Source: Phycisphaerae bacterium
GTDB taxonomy: Bacteria > Planctomycetota > Phycisphaerae > UBA1845
Length of the DNA stretch: 64,000 bases
Assembly: GCA_020056715.1 (NCBI GenBank)
Contig: JAGVHG010000040.1
Location: 75,920-139,919, forward strand
Direction of reading: 5' to 3'
Part shown: one piece after another, positions 4,195 to 61,345 of the stretch
Layout: the number at the start of each line of letters is the position of its first letter
Position numbering within the stretch: position 1 is the stretch's first letter
Program-made: the position numbers and the translations under genes
The notes under the pieces: model-generated
Database searches by the model: none
Seen by the model: only the letters and a program-made list of their open reading frames with translations
Told to the model about the DNA's origin: nothing

Positions 4195-4692
4195 ATGATG
4201 ATTTCCACGACGATGAACGCCAAACTCAACGATCAGATCGGGGCTGAGTTCGCCGCGGCCCATGCTTATCTGGCGATGGCCTGCGATTTTGACCGAATGG
4301 CCCTCAAGGCCCTCGCCAAACGGTTTCTCAAGCAACACGACGAGGAATGCGAGCACGCCATGAAGATTTTGCACTACGTGCAAGAGGTCGGCGGGACGGT
4401 GTCGCTCGATGCCATCGCTAAACCGAAAAAGGATTACAAGAACATGGAGGCGATCGTGAGCACCGCTTTGCAAAACGAACTGGACATCACCGCCAAGATC
4501 AACGACCTGATGACCCTCGCGGAATCCGAGAAGGACTACGCCACGCGCAGCTTCTTGCAGTGGTTCGTCGACGAACAGGTGGAGGAAGTCTCCAGCATGA
4601 CCGACCTGCTCAACATCGTGAAGCTCGCCGGCGAAAACATGCTCCAGGTGGAGTCCTTGGTTCGGCATCAGATGCTCGCTGAAAAAAGCTGA
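4195..4692 (+). CDS. ftn: ferritin (non-heme, Ftn-type)
   Basis: Full-length ferritin-like four-helix pattern with ferroxidase ligands ([19 protein letters not shown]). Preceded by a strong SD. Confidence 0.9.
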
Positions 4693-4716
4693 AAAGTCGA
4701 AACGTCAAAACGTCAA
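4693..4716. repeat. tandem octamer repeat (AAAGTCGA AACGTCAA AACGTCAA)
   Basis: Period-8 A-rich repeat immediately after the ferritin stop. It is related (as reverse complement) to the TCGACTTT/TCGGCGTT units at 14869-14892. Confidence 0.6.
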
Positions 4717-4757
4717 AAAGAGTGACGGTACGCTCTACTCGAACCCACAGGTTTCCT

Positions 4758-9817: not shown

Positions 9818-11962
9818 TTGATGGACCCACACATAGTCTCGCCTGACGACAGCCAAAGGGCGCCCCCGGCCCGGTTCCGGTCACGCGAGTTCTGGCGCCT
9901 CGTCGCCCTCACCAGACCCTACCGGTGGTCCTTGATCGCGGGCCTCGTCGCAACGATCGCCTTCGCGGGCCTGCACACCGTGGGAATCAGCGGCGCCTTC
10001 CCTGTTTTTCAGGTCTTATTGGAAAAAGAAGACCTGCACGGCTGGCTCAACCGCGCCATTGCGGCTCATCGTCTCGATGTCGACTTCGCGCCTGTTACCG
10101 ATGCCGACTTCGTTCGTTTCCTGAAGATACCCCATGACAGCCCCTTGCTTGTCGCCGGTGTTCGAGCGGGTGACGATCTCCGCGATGCCCGAGACCGCCC
10201 GGTCCAGGAGTTGTTGCGAGAACTTGCCGAGGTTGACGCGGAGACGCCGGTCAACGTACTTGTCGGTGGAGCGTCTGCGCTGCGCGCCGTGGAGCTTCGG
10301 CCTCGCCCGGCGGAGCTTCATTTTCGGCTACTTCGCTGGGTCGGATCGGCGCTTCCGCCCGACGCTCCGGACACCAAGCTCCGCACCCTGATCTACATCC
10401 TCATGGCCCTGGTTACCGTGGCCGTTGCCTCCAACATCTTCCGTTATGTGGGCGAGACGCTCATCGCCAGAGCGATTTTGCGTACCCTGTTCGACCTCCG
10501 CGATAGGCTCTACGTACGCACGTTGCACTTACCGATGTCCTATTTCTCCGGGGCTAAGACCGCGGACTTGGTGACGCGCTTCGTACAGGACATCCAGGAA
10601 ATCCAGCGCGGTTTAATCACCCTTTTCGGCAAGGCCGTGAGGGAACCGATGAGGGGGGTGTTTCTGATTGCCCTCGCTTTCACCCTCGATTGGCGAGTCA
10701 CCCTGACGATGGCCGGCGTTGTCCCACTGGCCGTCATTCTGTTCTGGGCCGTCGGTCGAAGCGTGAAGAACGCCAACCGAAAGCTCTTGCAAGCCTACGG
10801 GGCCATGATCGGGGCGCTGACCGCGAGTCTGCAAAGTCTTCGCGTGGTTAAGACCTACACCGCCGAGGAGCACGAACGCGCCCGGCTGGACGTCGTCGAT
10901 CGAAGAATGTTCGAGCAACAACTGCACCTCGCCAAGCTGGACGCCTTCCTAAGCCCCATGATGGAGACGATCGCCGTCCTGACGGGCAGTTTGCTGACCG
11001 TCTGGCTGGCGAGCCTGGTCCTTGACCATGCCCTTTCCACTGCGAAGTTCGCCGCCCTCGGTGTGACGCTTTCCATGCTCTTCGATCCGCTTCGCAAGTT
11101 GACCGACGTGTATGTCCGCATTCAGCGCTCCACCGCGGGCGCGGAACGTATTTTCCAGGTTCTTGACCATCCCGTGGAATCCGATCTCGCCCCCGGAGAC
11201 GTCGACGTGGCCCCGCTTGAGAAAGGGCTCGACTTCCTCAACGTCTCCTTCACTTATCCCGGCGCCACGGCGCCGGCGCTTAGCGACGTGACGCTCTCCA
11301 TCCGCCGCGGCGAGACGGTTGCCATCGTCGGCCCTAACGGCTGCGGCAAGACGACGCTGGTGAGCCTCCTTCCGCGACTGTTCGATCCGGAAAAAGGCGA
11401 AGTGCGTTACGACGGCGTCGATATCCGCCGGGCGACGCTAAACAGCCTCCGCCGACAGATCGGTTTTGTGGGTCAGGATGCGGTGATTTTCGAGGGCACG
11501 CCGGTGGAGAACATCGCTTATGGCGCCTCGCCGGTCGATCGAGGCCGCGCGGAAGACGCCGCCCGCCGGGCCTACGCCGATGAGTTCATCCGCAACATCC
11601 CAGGCGGATATGAGGCCGTCCTCGGCGAACGCGGCTCGACGCTCTCCGGCGGCCAGCGGCAACGGCTCGCCATCGCCCGTGCCATTTACCGCGACGCACC
11701 GATCCTCATCTTTGACGAGGCCACCAGTCAGATTGACACCGAGTCCGAGCAGAAGATCCAAACCGCCCTGCGCGAATTCGCCAAGGGCCGCACCACCATC
11801 ATCATCGCCCACCGCCTCAGCACCATCCAATTCGCCGATCGCATCATCGTCATGGACGCCGGGCGGATCATCGACTCCAGCTCGCATAAGGAACTGTTCG
11901 ACCGCTGCCCGCTCTATCGCACGCTCTGCGAAACGCAGTTTGTAAACGAGCGTGGAGACTAA
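9818..11962 (+). CDS. ABC exporter, fused permease/ATPase (MsbA-like) with enlarged first periplasmic loop
   Basis: Six-helix exporter TMD. Walker A GPNGCGKTT, signature LSGGQRQR, Walker B ILIFDEATS. A segment of about 125 aa lies between TM1 and TM2. Confidence 0.85.
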   Translation: MMDPHIVSPDDSQRAPPARFRSREFWRLVALTRPYRWSLIAGLVATIAFAGLHTVGISGAFPVFQVLLEKEDLHGWLNRAIAAHRLDVDFAPVTDADFVRFLKIPHDSPLLVAGVRAGDDLRDARDRPVQELLRELAEVDAETPVNVLVGGASALRAVELRPRPAELHFRLLRWVGSALPPDAPDTKLRTLIYILMALVTVAVASNIFRYVGETLIARAILRTLFDLRDRLYVRTLHLPMSYFSGAKTADLVTRFVQDIQEIQRGLITLFGKAVREPMRGVFLIALAFTLDWRVTLTMAGVVPLAVILFWAVGRSVKNANRKLLQAYGAMIGALTASLQSLRVVKTYTAEEHERARLDVVDRRMFEQQLHLAKLDAFLSPMMETIAVLTGSLLTVWLASLVLDHALSTAKFAALGVTLSMLFDPLRKLTDVYVRIQRSTAGAERIFQVLDHPVESDLAPGDVDVAPLEKGLDFLNVSFTYPGATAPALSDVTLSIRRGETVAIVGPNGCGKTTLVSLLPRLFDPEKGEVRYDGVDIRRATLNSLRRQIGFVGQDAVIFEGTPVENIAYGASPVDRGRAEDAARRAYADEFIRNIPGGYEAVLGERGSTLSGGQRQRLAIARAIYRDAPILIFDEATSQIDTESEQKIQTALREFAKGRTTIIIAHRLSTIQFADRIIVMDAGRIIDSSSHKELFDRCPLYRTLCETQFVNERGD

Positions 11963-13687: not shown

Positions 13688-14809
13688 TCATCCGTTTCGC
13701 TTTCGACTTTCGTTCGCCGCCTTCCGCAAGCCCTCCGTCATCTCCTCCAAGCACGTGAACAACCGCCGGTGGCGGCGTGTCTTGGATCGCACGAGGACGT
13801 ACTGGGCGATCAACGGAAAGGTGATCGAGGCACACGAATACACCACGACGTTGTTGACGTACGCATCCTTGATCTTTCCCCAGCTTCGGGCCTCGCTCGG
13901 CGTCGCTCCGGACAATCCACCCCAGTGCGGGGCGTCGGTGGTCAGTTGCAGGAAGTAGTCGTGCCCGCCCTTGGAGCGATCCATCAGTATCTGGTGGAGC
14001 GTGGGTTGAGTCTGCAAATAGAAATTCTTGGGTGATCCGCCGCCGATCTCGACCACGCCGTTGATGTCCGCGTCGCGGACAATGGCCGCTGTCTCGATGA
14101 CATCGAGCACCGGGTTGAGCATCACCGGCTTGTCGAAAAGATGCGGCACGATGAGGTTCATGCCGATCGACGAATCCCCCGGCGAGGAGGTGTAAATGGG
14201 CACGTCGAACTTGGCCGCCGCGGCCACCATCGACTTTTCCGGGTGCGGCGATTTCTCCCACAACATCTTTCCCATGTGATGGTGCAACCGGGCGGTCGAG
14301 AACGGCTTAGTGAGATCGAACCCCTGGATCAGTTCGAGCACTTTGTTGTCCGTGGCCATTAGCGTGTCTTCTTCGCCGATGAAAACATCAAAAATGCGGG
14401 CGACGCCTTCGTCGGCTAGGGCGTTGTCATCGACGTTGGCGCTGCCCTGCACCATGGGGAAGGCGTAGGCCAAGTGCAGGTCGTGGTACAGGTTGGCGCC
14501 CGTGGAGATGATGAAGTCCACGAACCCACGCTCGATCAGAGAACAGATGACCCCGCCGATTCCGATGGGCGTCATCGCCCCGGCGACGGTCAGGGCGACG
14601 GTGGCGTCGGCTTCGAGCATCCGCGCGTAGAGCTTGGCCCCTTCTGCCAGCTTGCGGCCGTTGAACCCGCTATGGGAGAAGCAATTGTCGATCAGGTCCG
14701 CGACGTTCTCGTTGCCGACAAGCCGCAACGGCTCGATCGCCGGAGCGTTGAGCAAGGCCGCGTGACCGGCGTGCTTGGCGTCTTTTTCACTATGTTGGCA
14801 AGGATGCAT
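13688..14809 (-). CDS. deoxyhypusine synthase-like protein (candidate homospermidine synthase)
   Basis: Full-length DHS-family similarity, e.g. GGGSPKNF and TTDAPHWGGLSGATPSEARSWGKI. Located between pdaD and speB. Confidence 0.8.
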   Translation of the reverse strand: MHPCQHSEKDAKHAGHAALLNAPAIEPLRLVGNENVADLIDNCFSHSGFNGRKLAEGAKLYARMLEADATVALTVAGAMTPIGIGGVICSLIERGFVDFIISTGANLYHDLHLAYAFPMVQGSANVDDNALADEGVARIFDVFIGEEDTLMATDNKVLELIQGFDLTKPFSTARLHHHMGKMLWEKSPHPEKSMVAAAAKFDVPIYTSSPGDSSIGMNLIVPHLFDKPVMLNPVLDVIETAAIVRDADINGVVEIGGGSPKNFYLQTQPTLHQILMDRSKGGHDYFLQLTTDAPHWGGLSGATPSEARSWGKIKDAYVNNVVVYSCASITFPLIAQYVLVRSKTRRHRRLFTCLEEMTEGLRKAANESRKRNG

Positions 14810-14892
14810 AACGTCAAACGCCGAAACGCCGAAACGCCGAAACCCATAAGTCTTCAGTCCGCATCATTTCGGCGTTTCGACTTTTCGGCGTT
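14810..14892. repeat. inverted octamer arrays (AACGCCGA x3 ... TCGGCGTT/TCGACTTT x3)
   Basis: Period-8 tandem units at 14817-14840 and their reverse complements at 14869-14892, separated by a spacer of about 23-28 nt. Together they fill the pdaD-DHS intercistronic gap. Confidence 0.7.
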
Positions 14893-14894
14893 TT

Positions 14895-15452
14895 TCAGTA
14901 TGGGATCAACACCGCCGCCGCTACGCACGTGGTCCACAGCCCGTTCTTGTCGCCCTCGATCGTTTGCACGACGGCCTTGGTTTTGACGACCAACCCTTGG
15001 GCTTTGTAGATGTTCTTTCGCTCGTTGTAGTCGGCGCTGGGGTCGAGGTCGATTCCCTGGGTCGTGGCCAGCATGGTGGCGGCCATGTCCTCGACATAGT
15101 CGCTGCACGCTTTTTGGGTCAAGCCGAAGCCGTGATGCTCGGAGATGTAGCCGTGTTGTTCCTTGTTGGCGGGCAAGGCCAACCCGATGCCCGCGCACGC
15201 CAGCCGGTTCGGCTCGTTGGTCCGGCACTCCGCCAGCACGCAGAAAACGATCTCGCCGGCGGCCAACTTAGCCAGCCCCTTCGCCCGTGTTGCGATCCGA
15301 CAATGCGGCGGATAGATGCTGCTTACGCGGACAAGGTTAAAACCGGCGATGCCGGCGTCGCGCAAGGCCTCTTCAAATGATTGAAGGTTGTTCCGGTGCT
15401 TGCCGGTCCCCTTCGTGAAGAACATCTCCTTGGGAACAAGATGCTCATACAA
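14895..15452 (-). CDS. pdaD: pyruvoyl-dependent arginine decarboxylase
   Basis: PdaD family-wide similarity, including FFTKGTGKH and the self-cleavage region LVRVSSIYPP. Confidence 0.85.
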   Translation of the reverse strand: MYEHLVPKEMFFTKGTGKHRNNLQSFEEALRDAGIAGFNLVRVSSIYPPHCRIATRAKGLAKLAAGEIVFCVLAECRTNEPNRLACAGIGLALPANKEQHGYISEHHGFGLTQKACSDYVEDMAATMLATTQGIDLDPSADYNERKNIYKAQGLVVKTKAVVQTIEGDKNGLWTTCVAAAVLIPY

Positions 15453-16698: not shown

Positions 16699-16752
16699 CG
16701 AAGCCGTGAGTATAGGGACTCAATCGGTTCAGTACAACGCAGAGAGGAACAG

Positions 16753-16854
16753 GCTGTAGACCGTAGACTTCAGGCTATAGGCTCTGGGATCGGGATTACC
16801 TGCGGACTACAGCCTTCAGCCTGGAGCCTACCCGTTAGGACGCGTCGGTTGCGT
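16753..16854. repeat. inverted heptamer arrays (GCTGTAG-type x5 / CTACAGC-type x4) plus GGAC-N-CGTCGGTTGCGT motif
   Basis: Left array: GCTGTAG ACCGTAG ACTTCAG GCTATAG GCTCTGG (16753-16787). A 19-nt spacer follows. Right array: CTACAGC CTTCAGC CTGGAGC CTACCCG (16807-16834). CGTCGGTTGCGT lies at 16843-16854. Confidence 0.7.
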
Positions 16855-19049: not shown

Positions 19050-19130
19050 CTACGGCCTATAGGCTTCAGCCTACAGCCTGTAGCCGAAAACAGCACGACC
19101 GACCTGCCAGTTGGGACACGTCGGTTGCGT
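19050..19130. repeat. heptamer array (CTACGGC CTATAGG CTTCAGC CTACAGC CTGTAGC) plus GGAC-N-CGTCGGTTGCGT motif
   Basis: Period-7 array at 19050-19084. A 12/12 identical copy of CGTCGGTTGCGT lies at 19119-19130, in the same orientation as the copy at 16843-16854. Confidence 0.7.
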
Positions 19131-20596: not shown

Positions 20597-21919
20597 TCAC
20601 GCCCGGGTTGGGTCGGCCTGATTGGAGAGACGGAAGACCAATTTCGCCCCAACCAAAAGGAGAAGGGCAAGGACCACCAATCCCCACTCTCCGACCGTCG
20701 GTATCGAAGTGTGCGGACAATCCAACTCGGAACAGGAACCCAGTTTCACCCACTCGCAGGTCGGGCAGTCGCACGCCGCTTGGGTGAGGCCGTCGGTGCA
20801 GGCCCCGAAGGGATCGTGGTCACAGCACGCCCCGGTGACGGCGTCGCACGCCACCTGTGCGCAGGTTTCGCCCTTGGTCCACTGCAGATGAGTCCCTGTG
20901 CAATCGTCCGGAAGTGAGTCGTCGGTGCAATCTGCGGTGAGAAGATGGCAGCAGGCTCCCGTCTGTCTAATGCCAAGACTGTGACCCCCGCCAGCGGCGA
21001 TGCCGATGAAATCGGCATTGGGCGCGGGGACGTTCGTCTGACCGTAGCGGTTGTCCCCCCACCCCACGATGGCCCCGTCGGCCTTGAGACCAAGACTGTG
21101 ACTGTAAGCCCCGCCTGTGGCGATGCCGATGAAATCGGCATTGGGGACAGGGATGCTGGTCTGACCGAATTCGTTGTCTCCCCACGCCACAATGGACCCG
21201 TCGGCTTTTAGACCCAAACTGTGCCCACTGCCGGCGGCGACGGCGACGAAACCAGTGTTGGGCGTGGGGACGTTGCATTGCCCATAGTTGTAGCCGCCAC
21301 ATCCCCACGCCACGATGGATCCGTCGGCCCTTAAGCCCAGACTGTGTACCGCGCCCGCGGCGATGGCCACGAACCCCGTGTTGGGCGTGGGGACGTTTGT
21401 CTGACCAAAGTCATTCCATCCCCACGCCACGATGGACCCGTCTACCTTAAGCCCGAGACTGTGCCTATAGCCCGCAGAGACGGCGACGAAACCGGTGTTG
21501 GGCGCGGGGACGTTGGTTTGACCGAAGTCATTTCTTCCCCACGCCGCGACGGACCCGTTGGCTTTGAGACCCAGACTGTGGAACCCACCTGCCGAGACGG
21601 CGATGAAGCCCGTGTTCGGGGCGGGAACGTTGGTCTGACCCTCGTAGTTGCGTCCCCATCCCACGATGGACCCGTCGGCCTTTAGGCCCAGACTGTGATA
21701 GTTGCCCGCGGCGACTGCGACGAAGCCCAAGTTGGGTAAGGCAACGTCGTTCTGGCCGTAGTCATTGTATCCCCACGCCACGATGGCACCTTGAGGCGAG
21801 TCTCCGCGAGCGATACCCGCCGGGGTCAGTGTCACGCCGACGCAAGCGAGAGCGAGGACGCAAGCCCTGCGAATTGTTCTACGACCACGGCGCGTGTTTT
21901 CTCGAATTGCCGGATTCAT
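20597..21919 (-). CDS. secreted RCC1-repeat protein with Cys-rich module and IPTL-CTERM-like C-terminal anchor
   Basis: About 8 repeats of VAWG.N..GQ.NVP.PN.GFVAV.AG..HSLGL.ADGS. A Cys-rich region follows, then IPTVGEWGLVVLALLLLVGAKLVFR at the C-terminus. ATG 21919 gives a signal-peptide-like N-terminus. Confidence 0.75.
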   Translation of the reverse strand: MNPAIRENTRRGRRTIRRACVLALACVGVTLTPAGIARGDSPQGAIVAWGYNDYGQNDVALPNLGFVAVAAGNYHSLGLKADGSIVGWGRNYEGQTNVPAPNTGFIAVSAGGFHSLGLKANGSVAAWGRNDFGQTNVPAPNTGFVAVSAGYRHSLGLKVDGSIVAWGWNDFGQTNVPTPNTGFVAIAAGAVHSLGLRADGSIVAWGCGGYNYGQCNVPTPNTGFVAVAAGSGHSLGLKADGSIVAWGDNEFGQTSIPVPNADFIGIATGGAYSHSLGLKADGAIVGWGDNRYGQTNVPAPNADFIGIAAGGGHSLGIRQTGACCHLLTADCTDDSLPDDCTGTHLQWTKGETCAQVACDAVTGACCDHDPFGACTDGLTQAACDCPTCEWVKLGSCSELDCPHTSIPTVGEWGLVVLALLLLVGAKLVFRLSNQADPTRA

Positions 21920-22030
21920 ATGCCCCTCCCAAAGATGGTCGCCGGACGCTCGGCCGTGGCGATCGAAAAGAACGAAGGCCCATTGTACTGTAGCCCGCCC
22001 TGCCGGCACAATCCCAAAACCACCTGGCCA

Positions 22031-22046
22031 AACGCCGAAACGCCGA
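22031..22046. repeat. tandem octamer AACGCCGA x2
   Basis: Same unit as at 14817-14840. Located between the transglutaminase-like and RCC1 genes. Confidence 0.55.
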
Positions 22047-22122
22047 AATAAAGCTGGTCGTGTCACTCCCGCTCCACGCTCTTATTGGCCCCGCGCTGGC
22101 TTGGGGTTCGGATCGGCGCGCG

Positions 22123-39376: not shown

Positions 39377-39382
39377 GATCAG

Positions 39383-39417
39383 GCTATAGGTTGTAGGCTG
39401 TAGGCATTAGGCAATAC
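39383..39417. repeat. heptamer array GCTATAG GTTGTAG GCTGTAG GCATTAG GCAATAC
   Basis: Period-7 repeat in the gspF-gspG spacer. Same unit family as 16753-16787. Confidence 0.65.
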
Positions 39418-39434: not shown

Positions 39435-39899
39435 ATGCGAAGAAAAGTGTATCGAAGGCGATCGGCGTTTACGTTGATCGAGGTGTTGCTGGTGGCGGGC
39501 ATCCTGGCGGTGCTGGCGGCCTTTATTGTCCCGAACCTGTTCGGACAGGCAACCAAGGCGAAGATCGACATCGCCAAGGCGGCGGTGCTGCGCAACGGCT
39601 CTATTGCCAAGGCGTTGGATATGTACAAGTTCGACATGGTCAAATTCCCTGAAACGAACGAGGGGCTGGCGGCCCTTTTCCAGCCCAAGGAAAAAAAGAA
39701 GGACGAAGAGCGCTACAACGGGCCGTACATGGAAGGGGTCTTCGAGCAACTCAAGGATCCGTGGGGCAACCCCTATGAGTATCGCTCCCCCGGGGAGATC
39801 AACGAGGACTTCTACGACCTGTGGAGCCGAGGCCCGGATGGCAAGGACGACGGCGGCAAGGAAGGAAGCGACGACATCGTGAACTGGGTTAGGAAGTAG
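39435..39899 (+). CDS. gspG: type II secretion major pseudopilin G
   Basis: RRSAFTLIEVLLVAGILAVLAAFIVPN prepilin motif. GspG core present (DMYKFDMVKFP..EGL.AL, DPWGNPYEYRSPGE, DLWSRGPDGKD). Confidence 0.9.
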   Translation: MRRKVYRRRSAFTLIEVLLVAGILAVLAAFIVPNLFGQATKAKIDIAKAAVLRNGSIAKALDMYKFDMVKFPETNEGLAALFQPKEKKKDEERYNGPYMEGVFEQLKDPWGNPYEYRSPGEINEDFYDLWSRGPDGKDDGGKEGSDDIVNWVRK

Positions 39900-39911
39900 G
39901 AGTATGACGTG

Positions 39912-40011
39912 GATTGTCAATTGCCAATTGCCGATTGCCAATTAAAAAACGCAAGTCCACGCGCGTTCCTATTTGGCAATTGGCCCGCCTTCGGCGGGGC
40001 AATTGGCAATG
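39912..40011. repeat. inverted heptamer arrays (GATTGTC AATTGCC AATTGCC GATTGCC AATTAAA ... GGCAATT..GGCAATT GGCAATG) around GC hairpins
   Basis: The left array (39912-39946) and reverse-complement units (39975-39981, 39998-40011) flank the CCCGCC-TTCG-GGCGGG hairpin (about 39984-39998). The element fills the gspG-gspH gap. Confidence 0.7.
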
Positions 40012-40013
40012 AC

Positions 40014-40775
40014 ATGCCGCAAAAGTCGCCCGCCTTCACGCTCTTGGAAGTGACGTTGGCGATCGGGCTGCTGGTCGTCATCAGCGCCATCGCCATCCCC
40101 AATTTTGTTGGTCAAATCGAGCGCGAGGAATTGCCGGGTTCGGGGCGACAGCTTCGCTCGTTGCTGGCCCTGGCCCGGGCGAACGCCTCGTTCGAGGGGA
40201 AGCGCTATCGGATCCGTTTTCCCAAGGAGAAGGAGAAGGAGAAAGACGCACTGGGGGGCGATCAGCAACCGCTGATCGAGCGTGAGGATGATCCCATTCG
40301 CAACCCGGAGGTGTTCCACGAAGTGACGGCCCCCTGGGCCTTCGGAAAAACGCTGTTGGGGAAGGTGTGGTGCGTGGAGGTACGGCTGGGGCGGCCTACC
40401 ATCGAGGACCTTCGCGTGCGGCGCGAGAAGATTACGGAGGTCTCGGACGAACTGCTTCGCTCTCCGGAGAATTTTGAACCGGAATACCCACCATTGTACA
40501 TCGAGCCGGACGGCAGCTCCGAGTGGGCGACGTTTACACTGACCAACGCGCCGCGGGGCACGAAAATCGACGAATTGGAAGACCACCCGCGTATCGACCT
40601 GATTGTGGAAGGGACGACGGGTTTGGCATGGATGCAGCGTCCGTTCTACGACGAGGAGTTGGACCTGTTCGAGGAGAAGGGTTGGCCGGCGGTGCTGCGC
40701 CAGGACTTCCTCGATCCGCGGGTGCTGACTGAAAACGACGTTCTCGAACTGCGTGAGATTACGATCCGGCCATGA
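40014..40775 (+). CDS. minor pseudopilin (GspH-like)
   Basis: SPAFTLLEVTLAIGLLVVISAIAIPNF prepilin motif. ATG 40014 is preferred, because the ORF-track extension runs through the repeat element. Confidence 0.6.
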   Translation: MPQKSPAFTLLEVTLAIGLLVVISAIAIPNFVGQIEREELPGSGRQLRSLLALARANASFEGKRYRIRFPKEKEKEKDALGGDQQPLIEREDDPIRNPEVFHEVTAPWAFGKTLLGKVWCVEVRLGRPTIEDLRVRREKITEVSDELLRSPENFEPEYPPLYIEPDGSSEWATFTLTNAPRGTKIDELEDHPRIDLIVEGTTGLAWMQRPFYDEELDLFEEKGWPAVLRQDFLDPRVLTENDVLELREITIRP

Positions 40776-60379: not shown

Positions 60380-60930
60380 CCACCGTCCAGGCGATGATAC
60401 GGCGAAGGTTTCGGTCGGTGGCGACATGCTTGGGCGTGTTCGCCTTGGTCACCGGCGGATGCCGTTCTTTGGGTAGGACGGACGCAAGCTCACCGCCGTC
60501 GTCGTCGCGCCCCATCCGCTCGGGCGACATTCACGGCGTGGTTTGTCTGTTCGATCAAAAGCCGTGGATCAGCGTCGATGCCGCGGGAGATCCCGATCCG
60601 GAGGGCATCCGCTATCGTGTCTTTCTCGACCCCGGCAAAGGTAAATGCGTTCTACGTGAAGGTTCGTTTCGTATTGAGATGTATCTGATCGATCGCACGG
60701 ACTCCGGCGATACTGAGCGTACGCTGGTGAGCGATTGGAATTATCCGACGAGCGAGCTTGGAACCGTTCTTTCCAAGATTCTCGGCAAAGGCTATCACCT
60801 TCAACTGCGCTGGGCGAAGAAAGACACCGCCGGGCACGAGATCGAAGTGGTCACGCAGTTCATCGATCGATACGGCAACACCACGCGGTCGCCGACCAAG
60901 CGACTCCGCGTGCCGAAGTATTCGTCCTGA
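60376..60930 (+). CDS. lipoprotein, candidate pilotin/secretin accessory
   Basis: Lipobox-like LVTGGC after a basic/hydrophobic signal. Its ATG overlaps the secretin TGA (ATGA). The longer ORF-track version is an artefactual extension. Confidence 0.45.
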   Translation: MTTVQAMIRRRFRSVATCLGVFALVTGGCRSLGRTDASSPPSSSRPIRSGDIHGVVCLFDQKPWISVDAAGDPDPEGIRYRVFLDPGKGKCVLREGSFRIEMYLIDRTDSGDTERTLVSDWNYPTSELGTVLSKILGKGYHLQLRWAKKDTAGHEIEVVTQFIDRYGNTTRSPTKRLRVPKYSS

Positions 60931-60940
60931 AAGCGTGTAC

Positions 60941-60972
60941 AAAAACTCCTCTCCCCCTTATGGGGAGAGGGG
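60941..60972 (-). terminator. intrinsic terminator for the isc operon (hairpin CCTCTCCCC-loop-GGGGAGAGG + T-run on minus strand)
   Basis: 9-11 bp GC stem at 60946-60972 followed, on the minus strand, by TTTTT (complement of 60941-60945). It lies 16 nt after the iscX stop, between convergent genes. Confidence 0.6.
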
Positions 60973-60987
60973 TTCCTAGACACACTT

Positions 60988-61203
60988 TCAGGCATGTTCT
61001 TCTTTCCACTCTTCGAGCCAGGCCATCTGGATCGCCTCAAGTTTGCCCTCGGTGGAGGTCTTGGGGTCGTCGGTGAAGTTCTCCAATTCGCAAACCCATT
61101 CGTGTAGTTGGGTGAAGCGTACCGTGAGCGGGTCGAGATCAGGGAAACGCTCATAGAGCAGAATGCCGATGTCCTCGGCGTCATTCCACGTCAATTCGGT
61201 CAT
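60988..61203 (-). CDS. iscX: Fe-S cluster assembly protein IscX
   Basis: MTELTWNDAEDIGILLYERFPDLDPLTVRFTQLHEWVCELENFTDDP matches the IscX/YfhJ pattern. ATG 61203 is preferred. Confidence 0.8.
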   Translation of the reverse strand: MTELTWNDAEDIGILLYERFPDLDPLTVRFTQLHEWVCELENFTDDPKTSTEGKLEAIQMAWLEEWKEEHA

Positions 61204-61222
61204 GGCAACTCCGATGCTTATG

Positions 61223-61336
61223 AATGAAGAATGCTGAATTCGGAATGCGGAATGGTTGTCACCCATTCGCGGCTCAGCCCTGCCCTGAGCCGCGAAGGGA
61301 TGACACCGTGCATTCCGCATTCACAATTCCGCATTG
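61223..61336. repeat. inverted heptamer arrays (AATGAAG AATGCTG AATTCGG AATGCGG AATGGTT ... CCGCATT CACAATT CCGCATT) around an 11-bp GC hairpin
   Basis: The central hairpin TCGCGGCTCAG-CCCTGCC-CTGAGCCGCGA (about 61268-61296) is flanked by period-7 arrays in opposite orientation. The element fills the fdx-iscX gap. Confidence 0.7.
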
Positions 61337-61345
61337 ATACGGCCC

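What the first reader, a model, noticed from the sequence alone, without database searches (positions are those of the whole stretch)
39912..40011. Inverted heptamer arrays around a GC hairpin between the major and minor pseudopilin genes
Five tandem 7-nt units (GATTGTC AATTGCC AATTGCC GATTGCC AATTAAA) sit on one side. Their reverse complements (GGCAATT ... GGCAATT GGCAATG) sit on the other, interrupted by a CCCGCC-TTCG-GGCGGG hairpin. The whole 100-nt gap can fold into a long composite stem. A structure placed right after gspG could lower expression of the minor pseudopilins relative to the major one. The same architecture with different unit sequences occurs at 61223-61336, 16753-16834 and, as octamers, at 14810-14892. 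This suggests a genome-wide repeat class defined by form rather than by sequence.
Basis: seen in the sequence. Interest (0 to 1): 0.6.

Follow-up and report, generated by a model that had tools for sequence, protein, structure and literature searches.

The report
Heptamer-repeat hairpin in gspH leader
Mirror-image arrays of 7-base repeats form a long hairpin just after the major pseudopilin gene; such arrays are common in this lineage and known in other bacteria, but here the "gap" seems to be translated as a throw-away leader of the next gene.

Summary
The sequence observation is real. Window 39912-40011 holds about 4.4 AATTGCC-type heptamers, their inverted copies, and a nested CCCGCC-TTC-GGCGGG mini-hairpin. 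The RNA fold is -58 kcal/mol (z = -6.6). Period-7/8 arrays are about 12-fold enriched over shuffles, and inverted pairs almost never occur in shuffles. The source is a Phycisphaerae (Planctomycetota) genome.

The same two gaps around gspG carry such arrays in about 15 relatives. Unit sequence, copy number and presence of the inverted partner all turn over. Similar inverted arrays occur in other Planctomycetota and Verrucomicrobiota loci. This is the known kind "over-represented heptameric long SSRs"; inverted pairs were described in Xanthomonas. It is therefore a new variant, not a new class.

The main new result is that the "100-nt gap" is probably not a gap. A conserved SD-like motif and GTG/ATG start lie 9 nt after the gspG stop. 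They open a stop-free frame that stays in phase with gspH in 10 of 11 lineages, across 8 different lengths. The other two frames carry 12 and 15 stops.

Most likely, SSRs expanded inside a disposable prepilin leader. The hairpin starts 4 nt after the start codon. That it throttles or couples gspH translation is plausible but unproven.

The parts
39435..39899 (+). gspG, major pseudopilin gene (stop codon TAG at 39897-39899)
   Evidence: Pfam T2SSG E = 4.8e-27. NCBIfam GspG equivalog, 118.4 bits against a cut-off of 88.85.
39897..39902 (+). SD-like TAGGAG overlapping the gspG stop codon
   Evidence: TAGGAG/TAGGGG/TAGGGA lies 6-9 nt before the conserved start in 10 lineages.
39909..39911 (+). Conserved candidate start codon (GTG) of the long gspH ORF, 9 nt after the gspG stop
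   Evidence: GTG in 10 lineages and ATG in L027/L028, while the three bases before it vary. NCBI and JGI both annotate the 288-aa product from this codon (P0001/P0002).
39912..39946 (+). 5' arm: about 4.4 tandem heptamers (GATTGTC AATTGCC AATTGCC GATTGCC AATTAAA)
   Evidence: TRF period 7, 87% matches. Orthologous array present in 10 relatives.
39947..39974 (+). Central spacer: A-run, small AACGC/GCGTT stem, T-rich tract
   Evidence: Fold. Orthologues have a different small GC stem followed by TCTTTYATTT.
39975..39983 (+). 3' arm, first inverted unit (GGCAATTGG)
39984..39998 (+). Nested GC mini-hairpin CCCGCC-TTC-GGCGGG inside the 3' arm
   Evidence: Unique in the window. Also present in L002 only. 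L029 and L048 have different GC hairpins at the same spot. L001, L024, L025, L027 and L051 have plain units there.
39999..40011 (+). 3' arm, outer inverted units (GCAATTGGCAATG)
40014..40016 (+). Proximal in-frame ATG (alternative gspH start; would give the leader MPQKSPA)
40035..40775 (+). Mature GspH-like minor pseudopilin, starting at the F of A|FTLLEV
   Evidence: Prepilin motif. Weak GspH/XpsH matches. 308 homologues found.
39381..39410 (+). Unpaired heptamer array (TAGGCTG x about 4) in the gspF-gspG gap, upstream of the gspG SD
   Evidence: TRF. The orthologous gap holds CGAATGT-, TCGATTT-, CAATTAC- or AATTGCC-type arrays in relatives.
61219..61340 (-). Sister element: inverted GAATGCG heptamer arrays around a 12-bp GC hairpin, between fdx (ferredoxin) and iscX
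14808..14898 (-). Sister element: inverted AAACGCCG octamer arrays filling the gap between pyruvoyl arginine decarboxylase and deoxyhypusine synthase
16751..16832 (-). Weak sister element: degenerate GGCTGTA-type inverted arrays (Kelch protein -> acyl-CoA dehydrogenase gap)
   Evidence: (z = -1.65).
4685..4720 (+). Unpaired octamer array (AAAAGTCG AAACGTCA AAACGTCA) filling a 29-nt gap from stop to start
19050..19085 (.). Unpaired or self-complementary CTACAGC heptamer array in a divergent gap
22030..22048 (.). Short AAACGCCG octamer array (2.4 copies)

Best explanation
The feature belongs to a lineage-wide population of long simple-sequence repeats with 7- or 8-nt units. These repeats grow and shrink by slippage wherever the sequence is free to vary, and they often sit as inverted pairs that fold into long hairpins. 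At this locus the arrays expanded inside the 5' end of gspH, not in an untranslated spacer. Translation most likely starts at the conserved GTG 9 nt after the gspG stop. It runs through both arms and yields a prepilin whose long, sequence-unconstrained leader (42 aa here, against 11 aa in most of the family) would be removed at A|FTLLE by the prepilin peptidase. Selection therefore keeps only the total length at a multiple of three and the frame free of stops. The hairpin starts 4 nt after that start codon. It should therefore hinder free ribosome loading and make gspH translation depend on ribosomes that have just finished gspG. This would keep minor pseudopilins low relative to the major one. 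Shown: the arrays, the fold potential, the enrichment, persistence at orthologous sites, and conservation of frame and start codon. Inferred: actual translation, cleavage of the leader, and any effect on expression. My step-wise confidence is about 0.85 for the SSR class, about 0.65 for the translated leader, and about 0.35 for the hairpin tuning translation.
For: SSR class. Period-7/8/14 arrays concentrate outside the interior of ORFs: in 424 kb of Phycisphaerae loci, 41 of 52 period-7 arrays are intergenic or within the first 150 nt of a maximal ORF, whereas 60 of 83 period-9 arrays are inside genes. They are enriched against shuffles. The F-G and G-H positions carry arrays in about 15 relatives, with changing units and copy numbers. 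Translated leader. The distance from the start codon to the F/Y codon is 126, 150, 150, 159, 309, 90, 126, 138, 162 and 117 nt in 10 lineages; all are 0 mod 3 and there are 8 distinct lengths. That frame has 0 stops, against 12 and 15 in the other two frames. P(10 or more of 11 in frame | 1/3) = 1.3e-4. The start codon is GTG, replaced by ATG in L027, with an SD-like TAGGAG upstream. The 9-nt spacing fits the overlapping H-I-J-K gene junctions. Some lineages have lost the proximal start (L024, GTG->GTT; P0010, P0008, P0014). The family-typical leader is 11 aa in 70 of 110 homologues, and long leaders occur only in this sub-clade. Hairpin. Every orthologue folds at -40 to -55 kcal/mol, and both arms are kept in most. 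A GC mini-hairpin at one site has three different self-complementary sequences. The start codon sits at the base of the stem.
Against: GC3 of the leader is 0.55, against 0.77-0.80 for gspG and mature gspH. Substitutions show no third-position excess (read by hand from the orthologue sequences), so nothing but the frame indicates coding. Most lineages also have a plausible proximal start that gives a normal leader of 7-14 aa. One lineage (L050) has the upstream GTG out of frame. The arrays lack stop codons in all frames, so open frames are cheap. Arm complementarity is only about 80-88%. One relative (L026) has lost the 3' arm and L029 has lost most of the 5' arm. The G-H hairpins fold equally well on either strand, so nothing points specifically to RNA. 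No expression data exist.
Confidence: 0.4

Rival explanations
1. Neutral by-product. Slippage-prone heptamer/octamer arrays, and inverted copies made by template switching or by drift of near-palindromic units, accumulate in any unconstrained DNA. The hairpin has no function. The frame is kept only because ribosomes that unavoidably re-initiate after gspG must not run out of frame across the real gspH start.
For: About half of the arrays have no inverted partner. Partners decay (L026, L029). Units drift and copy numbers change between close relatives. The CAATTG core of AATTGCC is palindromic, so a single C->G change per unit turns one arm type into the other (sequence; L008 13761-13785). Arm complementarity is no better than expected for two arrays of one unit family. 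The leader shows no codon bias. The literature attributes heptamer excess to polymerase slippage (Mrazek 2007, as summarised in PMC4679880).
Against: The elements persist at the same two gaps across relatives down to about 70-82% GspG identity. A mini-hairpin is kept at one site with three different self-complementary sequences. Sense strands tend to fold better than antisense strands (mean -2.2 kcal/mol, Wilcoxon p = 0.03; p = 0.09 after removing orthologues; G.U pairs 54 vs 33, p = 0.03).
Confidence: 0.27
2. Untranslated intercistronic RNA element. The hairpin would act as an attenuating terminator, a 3' stabiliser of gspG mRNA, or an RNase III processing site that lowers downstream pseudopilin expression.
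For: The stem is very stable. The centre of several orthologues is a small GC stem followed by TCTTTYATTT. More distant relatives have terminator-like hairpins after gspG, for example L032 GCCCACGGG..CCCGTGGGCTTTTT and L009. Long perfect duplexes are RNase III substrates (general knowledge; compare PMC12721329, abstract seen).
Against: No U-run follows the complete stem. The terminator scan finds no + strand site here and is at background overall (15 found against 13.8 expected). Conservation of the frame and of the start codon is unexplained if the stretch is untranslated.
Confidence: 0.12
3. Miniature mobile element (MITE/REP-like) whose terminal inverted repeats happen to be built of heptamers.
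For: The same unit sequences occur at non-orthologous sites and in different genomes (AATTGCC, GAATGCG, GAGGCAAC). L050 and L002 contain insertion-like hairpin blocks inside an array.
Against: There are no near-identical dispersed copies and no target-site duplications are visible. The mini-hairpin is not dispersed. Orthologous elements drift in place instead of showing presence/absence with clean edges. Unpaired arrays are as common as paired ones.
Confidence: 0.04
4. Arrayed binding sites for a nucleic-acid-binding protein with a footprint of about 7 nt, for example cold-shock-domain proteins or ribosomal protein S1 on the mRNA. Binding to the 5' arm would control whether the hairpin forms.
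For: The unit length matches the 6-7-nt footprint of cold-shock domains (own knowledge). Many units share CGAA/CCAAT-like cores. MacGregor proposed S1/Csp/CsrA binding for TAACTGA heptamer arrays next to start codons (PMC4679880).
Against: Several unrelated unit families coexist (GGCTGTA, GAGGCAAC, ACTCCCAC). The orientation of unpaired arrays relative to transcription is not fixed (about 6 sense to 2 antisense, not significant). No candidate protein was examined.
Confidence: 0.05
5. Contingency (phase-variation) switch. Gain or loss of one 7-nt unit shifts the long gspH ORF out of frame.
For: Non-3n repeats sit inside a 5' coding region. This geometry is classic for SSR phase variation (general knowledge; PMC4679880 introduction).
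Against: The arrays are short (about 4 units) and imperfect, so slippage should be slow. Ten of 11 assemblies are in the ON frame. Two near-identical strains (L027/L028) differ by point changes, not by unit number. Proximal starts could bypass the switch.
Confidence: 0.04

Closest known systems
G-rich heptameric repeats of Xanthomonas (GGGAATC) and Nostoc (GGGGAYT), Rehm et al. 2015 (PMC4692102)
   Same: They are intergenic tandem heptamers, usually about 4 units. In Xanthomonas 70-75 cases are convergent inverted pairs able to form stem-loops. [quoted passage not shown] They are mostly transcribed and their function is unknown.
   Different: Each of those genomes has one G-rich unit family with G-quadruplex potential. 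Here several non-G-rich families coexist, there are no G3 tracts, octamers also occur, and one element lies inside a frame-conserved ORF.
Long simple sequence repeats with 5-11-nt units (Mrazek et al. 2007, as summarised in PMC4679880 and PMC4692102)
   Same: Heptanucleotide units are the most abundant class. Units that are not multiples of 3 avoid coding regions. Polymerase slippage is the proposed origin.
   Different: That survey did not address Phycisphaerae, inverted pairing, or arrays tolerated inside a cleavable leader.
TAACTGA heptamer direct repeats of Beggiatoaceae, Cyanobacteria and Bacteroidetes (MacGregor 2015, PMC4679880)
   Same: They are short heptamer arrays that sit within a few nucleotides of start codons, and a post-transcriptional role has been proposed.
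   Different: They have a single fixed unit and are almost always direct repeats (one indirect repeat among 170 sets). Here there are many units and frequent inverted pairs.
Cyanobacterial STRR heptanucleotide repeats (Calothrix/Anabaena)
   Same: They are tandem heptamers from a few unit families, dispersed in intergenic DNA (mentioned in PMC4692102; the rest is own knowledge).
   Different: The unit sequences and the phylum differ. I know of no reported frame-locked coding case.
REP/BIME elements and MITEs
   Same: They are intergenic, hairpin-forming and often intercistronic. REPs can stabilise upstream mRNA (own knowledge; PMC3733652 abstract).
   Different: REPs and MITEs are families of near-identical copies with defined ends or tags and a cognate transposase. 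These elements share a form and short units, not full-length sequence.
Structure-mediated translational coupling (e.g. phage MS2 genes, rpmI-rplT)
   Same: The downstream initiation site is buried at the base of a stem that a ribosome terminating a few nucleotides upstream would open (own knowledge; geometry).
   Different: Dependence on upstream translation is untested here, and the stem is built of SSR units.

Membership tests
Long SSRs with 5-11-nt units (heptameric SSR class) | Head-to-tail iteration of a 5-11-nt unit, longer than chance allows | tested here: met
   TRF finds 4.4 copies at 87% matches. The window has 8 such arrays, against 0.66 in shuffles.
Long SSRs with 5-11-nt units (heptameric SSR class) | Units that are not multiples of 3 are concentrated outside constrained coding sequence | tested here: met
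   41 of 52 period-7 arrays lie outside ORF interiors, whereas period 6, 9, 12 and 15 arrays are mostly inside.
Long SSRs with 5-11-nt units (heptameric SSR class) | Copy number varies between related genomes (slippage dynamics) | tested here: met
   Orthologous arms range from 1.5 to about 5 units.
Xanthomonas/Nostoc G-rich heptamer repeats (Rehm 2015) | Unit consensus GGGNATC / GGGGAYT with G-quadruplex potential | tested here: not met
   The units are AATTGCC, GAATGCG, AAACGCCG and GGCTGTA, with no G3 tracts.
Xanthomonas/Nostoc G-rich heptamer repeats (Rehm 2015) | Frequent convergent (inverted) pairs at conserved intergenic positions | tested here: met
   Five of 8 arrays in the window are paired. 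The positions are conserved in relatives.
MITE / REP-type mobile repeat | Multiple near-identical full-length copies with defined termini and target-site duplications | tested here: not met
   No repeated full-length copies were found in the window or in 51 loci. The mini-hairpin is unique. No flanking duplications are seen.
MITE / REP-type mobile repeat | Cognate transposase (e.g. a RAYT) in the genome | not testable with these tools
   The whole genome is not available.
Intrinsic (Rho-independent) terminator | GC-rich stem immediately followed by a U-run | tested here: not met
   The full stem is followed by GACATGCCGC. The scan finds no + strand site here and is at background overall. Only the small central stem of some orthologues is followed by a T-rich tract.
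Rfam RNA families | Match to any curated covariance model at its gathering score | tested here: not met
   0 matches in the 64-kb window.
Prepilin (type IV pilin-like) leader peptide | Leader ending in G/A, followed by F/Y-T-L-[LIV]-E and a hydrophobic helix | tested here: met
   ...SPA|FTLLEVTLAIGLLVV. The motif is present in 110 of 120 homologues.
Prepilin (type IV pilin-like) leader peptide | Short basic leader (family norm 11 aa) | tested here: not met
   The long form has 42 aa here and 30-103 aa in close relatives. Only the alternative ATG at 40014 would give 7 aa.
Prepilin (type IV pilin-like) leader peptide | Actual translation of the leader and cleavage by the prepilin peptidase | not testable with these tools
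   This needs Ribo-seq or proteomics. The only indirect support is frame conservation.
Structure-mediated translational coupling | The upstream stop codon lies close to a stem that buries the downstream start | tested here: met
   The stop is at 39897-39899, the GTG at 39909 and the stem runs from 39909/39913. This rests on a predicted structure only.
Structure-mediated translational coupling | Downstream translation depends on upstream translation | not testable with these tools
   An experiment is required.

The most novel reading that the evidence does not exclude
In this Phycisphaerae sub-clade a pseudopilin gene has acquired a leader-coding region built almost entirely of slippage-prone heptamer arrays in inverted orientation. 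The peptide is disposable and the mRNA hairpin is the functional product. The hairpin would act as a frame-locked 'zipper' that gates gspH initiation to ribosomes coming off gspG. Its stem length, and therefore the major-to-minor pseudopilin ratio, could be tuned by gain or loss of units, with single-unit changes acting as frameshift off-switches. More broadly, inverted heptamer/octamer arrays in bacteria of the Planctomycetota-Verrucomicrobiota (PVC) group would be an evolvable, sequence-independent way of building intercistronic coupling hairpins.
Probability: 0.15. Interest if true: 0.7.

Novelty: new variant of a known kind. Interest (0 to 1): 0.45.

Why it matters
Over-represented heptameric repeats are a long-noted but unexplained feature of many large bacterial genomes. 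This locus offers three things.

- It extends inverted heptamer/octamer arrays to Planctomycetota and Verrucomicrobiota, with many unit families in one genome. This argues for a general generating process rather than one sequence-specific factor.
- It provides a natural experiment. The same kind of array sits both in true spacers and in a stretch that is held in frame. The neutral slippage spectrum (+/-7 nt) can therefore be separated from what selection allows (net multiples of 3).
- It gives a concrete, testable case in which an SSR-built hairpin could set subunit stoichiometry in a type II secretion operon.

It also warns annotators that a "gap with repeats" may in fact be a translated, cleavable leader.

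Tried and rejected
- **Rfam:** the scan of the whole window gave nothing at gathering scores.
- **Promoter/terminator consensus scan:** terminator-like sites are at background. None lies on the + strand at the element. Only a weak minus-strand promoter-like match and a small minus-strand terminator-like site fall inside it.
- **Pooled lag autocorrelation of crude intergenic DNA:** this was dominated by period 3 from unannotated coding sequence and was not informative.
- **First strict array finder:** it missed degenerate arrays, so I replaced it with TRF.
- **Mini-hairpin as a small dispersed mobile insert (by analogy with cyanobacterial SDRs):** it occurs once in the window and once in L002, so I rejected the idea.
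- **Formal base-pair covariation on the orthologue alignment:** abandoned. Repeat arms can pair in several registers, so column-wise counts would be arbitrary. Only anecdotal compensations were seen, for example the L025 GAC variant in both arms.
- **Sense versus antisense folding asymmetry as a test for RNA-level selection:** the result is only borderline (p = 0.03, or 0.09 after removing orthologues). It is absent for the G-H element itself and is confounded by possible transcription-linked mutation bias.
- **Single-linkage clustering of units:** 48 of 88 arrays fell into one cluster. I discount this as evidence, because random heptamers compared over 14 rotations and strands would also percolate. 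Only exact recurrences are used.
- **In-frame extension as a general property of the class:** rejected. The 14810 and 16753 elements have in-frame stops, and the 39-codon open stretch before iscX is within chance.
- **Exact-sequence look-ups of window proteins:** GspG, both IscX forms and P0001 gave no contigs.
- **Elhai 2008 and Mrazek 2007:** neither paper could be opened.
Full report
**1. The observation**

Window 39912-40011 reads GATTGTC AATTGCC AATTGCC GATTGCC AATTAAA. A 28-nt spacer follows, then GGCAATTGG, then a nested CCCGCC-TTC-GGCGGG hairpin (39984-39998), then GCAATTGGCAATG. Tandem Repeats Finder gives period 7, 4.4 copies and 87% matches for the first arm. As RNA, the stretch 39900-40020 folds into one composite stem of -58.2 kcal/mol. 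Two hundred dinucleotide shuffles give -35.9 +/- 3.4 (z = -6.6), and none is as stable.

- The sister site at 61215-61345 is stronger (z = -8.4).
- The octamer site at 14800-14900 is also strong (z = -5.7).
- The site at 16745-16845 is weak (z = -1.65).

The window holds 8 period-7/8 arrays of at least 20 nt, against 0.66 in 100 shuffles. Five of them have an inverted partner within 220 nt, against 0.01 in shuffles. Rfam has no match.

**2. Gene context and organism**

- The upstream gene is GspG (NCBIfam equivalog, above its cut-off).
- gspF precedes it.
- Downstream come a prepilin-type protein with weak GspH similarity, then weak GspI/GspJ matches, then a GspK-like gene.
- The closest public relatives are Phycisphaerae/Planctomycetota MAGs.
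- The other elements separate unrelated gene pairs: pyruvoyl arginine decarboxylase and deoxyhypusine synthase; a Kelch protein and an acyl-CoA dehydrogenase; ferredoxin and IscX.
- There is no common function among these pairs. All four paired elements lie between co-directional genes, but so do most gaps in this genome.

**3. A clade-wide class with turnover**

I fetched the DNA around gspG from 12 Phycisphaerae genomes and 13 metagenome contigs, plus four more loci through GspH homologues.

- **G-H position.** It carries AATTGCC-type inverted arrays in window, L001, L002, L024, L025, L027/L028, L048, L050 and L051. L026 has lost the 3' arm and L029 has lost most of the 5' arm.
- **F-G gap.** It carries arrays too, but the units differ:
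  - CGAATGT unpaired in L001, L024, L025, L029 and L032;
  - inverted GTCGAAT/GTCGATT in L027;
  - inverted TCGATTT in L002;
  - inverted CAATTAC in L003;
  - inverted AATTGCC-type in L026 and L030;
  - TAGGCTG in the window.
- **Drift and concerted change.** Within one array the units grade into each other. L032 runs from GATTTTC to GAATGGC. In L002 both arms have changed together relative to L001/L024.
- **Recent divergence.** Two strains that are 99.88% identical differ at 14 positions plus one indel in 16 kb. Two of those positions fall in the roughly 180 nt of the two elements, where about 0.17 would be expected.
- **Distribution by period.** Across 424 kb of these loci, 41 of 52 period-7 arrays, 16 of 19 period-8 arrays and 9 of 11 period-14 arrays lie outside ORF interiors. 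Period 6, 9, 12 and 15 arrays lie mostly inside genes.
- **Other lineages.** Loci from other lineages that were pulled in by weak matches have a similar density (1.27 against 1.53 arrays per 10 kb). They include clear inverted pairs:
  - L018 (Planctomycetota), ATGATTG/AATCATC;
  - L040, GTGTGGGA/ACTCCCAC at -75 kcal/mol;
  - L016 (Chthoniobacter).

First, about half of the arrays are unpaired, so the tandem array is the basic object. Second, some units recur exactly at unrelated sites and in different genomes (AATTGCC, GAATGCG, GAGGCAAC, AAACGYCG).

**4. What is already known**

- Heptanucleotide repeats are the most abundant long-SSR class in many bacterial genomes. Polymerase slippage has been proposed as the cause (Mrazek 2007, as summarised in PMC4679880, and in PMC4692102).
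- In Xanthomonas, GGGAATC heptamer arrays number about 185 per genome, usually with about 4 units. Seventy to 75 cases form convergent inverted pairs that could make stem-loops. They sit between the same genes in related species, with length variation, and they are mostly transcribed.
- TAACTGA heptamer arrays lie next to start codons in Beggiatoaceae and some Cyanobacteria and Bacteroidetes.
- I found no description for Phycisphaerae. The only hint is a table in which the 73% GC, 3,201-gene genome has 93.5 tandem-repeat bases per kb, against 10-20 for other Planctomycetes. I take that genome to be Phycisphaera mikurensis.

The kind is therefore known. What is new is the lineage, the co-existence of several non-G-rich unit families and of octamers, and the point in section 5.

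**5. The "gap" is probably translated**

- **Conserved start.** A GTG lies 9 nt after the gspG stop, preceded by TAGGAG/TAGGGG. It is conserved in 10 lineages and replaced by ATG in L027/L028, while the three bases before it vary.
- **Open frame.** From that codon an open frame runs through both arms and the mini-hairpin into the A|FTLLE prepilin motif.
- **Frame conservation.** The distance from the start to the F/Y codon is 126, 150, 150, 159, 309, 90, 126, 138, 162 and 117 nt. There are eight distinct lengths and all are multiples of 3. The alignment, however, shows many indels that are not multiples of 3, and the repeat unit is 7 nt.
- **Stops by frame.** That frame has 0 stops in these 10 lineages. 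The other two frames have 12 and 15.
- **Significance.** P(10 or more of 11 in frame | 1/3) is 1.3e-4. The eight lineages found through GspG alone, without any bias from ORF annotation, are 8 of 8 in frame.
- **The exception.** Only L050 is out of frame. It carries an extra hairpin-forming block of about 100 nt in the centre and has its own in-frame ATG.
- **Annotation.** Both NCBI and JGI annotate the 288-aa long form.
- **Leader lengths in the family.** The usual leader is 11 aa (70 of 110 homologues). Leaders of 26-103 aa that begin MDCQLPIADCQL... occur only in the window's close relatives.
- **Proximal starts.** Several of those relatives have lost any proximal start (L024, GTG->GTT; P0008, P0010, P0014).
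- **No protein-level constraint.** GC3 of the leader is 0.55, against 0.77-0.80 for gspG and mature gspH. By my hand reading of the orthologue sequences, substitutions show no third-position excess.
- **Fit to operon layout.** A start 9 nt after gspG also fits the overlapping H-I-J-K junctions.

Only the reading frame and the absence of stops are constrained. That is the pattern expected if the peptide is cut off and discarded by the prepilin peptidase.

**6. How it most likely works**

*Shown.* SSR arrays of 7-8-nt units populate unconstrained sequence in this lineage. They persist at orthologous sites while units, copy numbers and partners change. They are often inverted pairs with very stable predicted folds. 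At G-H the stretch is frame-locked to gspH behind a conserved SD-like motif and start codon.

*Inferred.* The arrays expanded inside the gspH leader-coding region. Translation starts at 39909 and the leader is removed. The stem begins 4 nt after the start codon, and in the window its 3' base also covers the alternative ATG at 40014. It should therefore impede free 30S loading. A ribosome terminating at the gspG stop 9 nt upstream would open the base of the stem, so gspH translation would be coupled to gspG translation and throttled by it.

*For selection on the structure.*
- Both arms are retained in most lineages.
- Left and right copy numbers are similar (4.4/4.1, 4.6/4.9, 4.1/4.9, 1.5/about 2).
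- A GC mini-hairpin sits at one position with three different self-complementary sequences: window/L002 CCCGCC..GGCGGG, L029 GCCCG..CGGGC and L048 TCCCGG..CCGGGA. Five lineages lack it.

*Against selection on the structure.*
- Arm complementarity is only about 80-88%.
- An arm has been lost in L026 and in L029.
- The G-H hairpins show no strand asymmetry in folding.
- The near-palindromic CAATTG core makes an inverted partner easy to obtain by drift.

**7. Rivals**

- **Neutral by-product.** This is the main rival, and only experiments or population data can separate it from the best explanation.
- **Untranslated terminator, stabiliser or processing site.** It is weakened by the lack of a U-run after the stem and by the frame conservation. 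Small central stems followed by T-rich tracts in some orthologues, and terminator-like hairpins after gspG in distant relatives, keep it alive.
- **Mobile element.** There are no near-identical copies or target duplications, and the mini-hairpin is not dispersed.
- **Protein-binding arrays and phase variation.** Both remain speculative.

**8. Verdict**

The finding is a real feature that was correctly seen. It is a new variant of a known kind (heptameric long SSRs, with inverted pairs as in Xanthomonas), here in a Phycisphaerae lineage. The frame-locked, SSR-built prepilin leader is the unexpected part and is directly testable. Interest is moderate.

Noticed in passing
window 39984-39998; L002 988-1002; L029 about 10500-10520; L048 about 1555-1575: A GC-rich mini-hairpin sits at the same position inside the 3' arm. 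It has three different self-complementary sequences (CCCGCC-TTS-GGCGGG; GCCCG-TCGCAGGC-CGGGC; TCCCGG-AGCG-CCGGGA). In L001, L024, L025, L027 and L051 plain heptamer units take its place. The indel is 9 nt, which keeps the frame.
   Followed up: partly
L050 about 1500-1600: An extra block of about 100 nt that can form a hairpin (TGTCATGTTGAGCGCAACGAAGC ... GCTTCGCTCAGAATGACATG) is inserted in the centre of the G-H element. This is the only lineage in which the upstream GTG is out of frame with gspH.
   Followed up: partly
L002 318-405 compared with L001 3045-3112: L002 looks as if a hairpin block (TTTTCGATTTTCGATTGC-GGGGAGCGCAGACCTCTCC-AATCGACAATCGCAAATCGA) was inserted into, or grew out of, the middle of the CGAATGT array that L001 and L024 have. 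This could be a template-switch or insertion event.
   Followed up: no
window 4688-4706, 14897-14870 (minus strand), L008 10430-10450: Three unrelated genes end in TGA followed directly by an AAA(A/G)(T/C)CGAAAC-type octamer array. GCTGAAAAGTCGAAACGTC is identical in window 4688 and after L008 gspG. The array therefore starts at the stop codon itself.
   Followed up: no
L008 5280-5361 and 6632-6678; L026 9887-9972 and 10479-10510: Complementary or identical array families flank a whole gene: TGTTGCC/CCTTGCC before a gene in L008 and GAGGCAAC after it, and AATTGCC arrays on both sides of gspG in L026. In L008 almost every intercistronic gap of the gsp operon holds an array.
   Followed up: no
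window 20976-21786: A tandem repeat of about 117 nt, 6.8 copies at 72% identity, lies inside the minus-strand ORF 20597-22066. It is presumably a repeat-domain protein.
   Followed up: no
window 60926-60992: An inverted repeat with 31-nt arms (81% complementary) and a 5-nt loop overlaps the stop codon of iscX (60988-60990, minus strand) and extends downstream of it. It is a candidate end-of-operon hairpin and is not built of tandem units.
   Followed up: no
window 61204-61320 (minus strand): The frame of iscX is open for 39 codons upstream of its ATG, through the centre and the 3' arm of the 61223 element, back to a TGA-ATG inside the 5' arm. This is within chance expectation, and no orthologues were available to test it.
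   Followed up: partly
L049 1-16: The contig begins with an Illumina adapter fragment (GACGCTCTTCCGATCT), so its 5' end is an assembly artefact.
   Followed up: no
L018 363-405, 7220-7313, 8241-8349; L040 14527-14589, 16049-16197; L016 2677-2966: Inverted heptamer/octamer arrays with other units occur in another Planctomycetota MAG, in an unassigned metagenome contig and in a Chthoniobacter (Verrucomicrobiota) MAG. The architecture is therefore not confined to Phycisphaerae.
   Followed up: partly
window 39949-39964 (minus strand): On the antisense strand the central small stem is followed by TTTTTT, which gives a terminator-like site for antisense transcription. This feature is shared with L024 only.
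   Followed up: no
L027 438-442 compared with L028: Two 99.88%-identical strains differ by one copy of a 5-nt tandem unit (GTTGA GTTGA). This is a direct example of recent slippage in an intergenic region.
   Followed up: no
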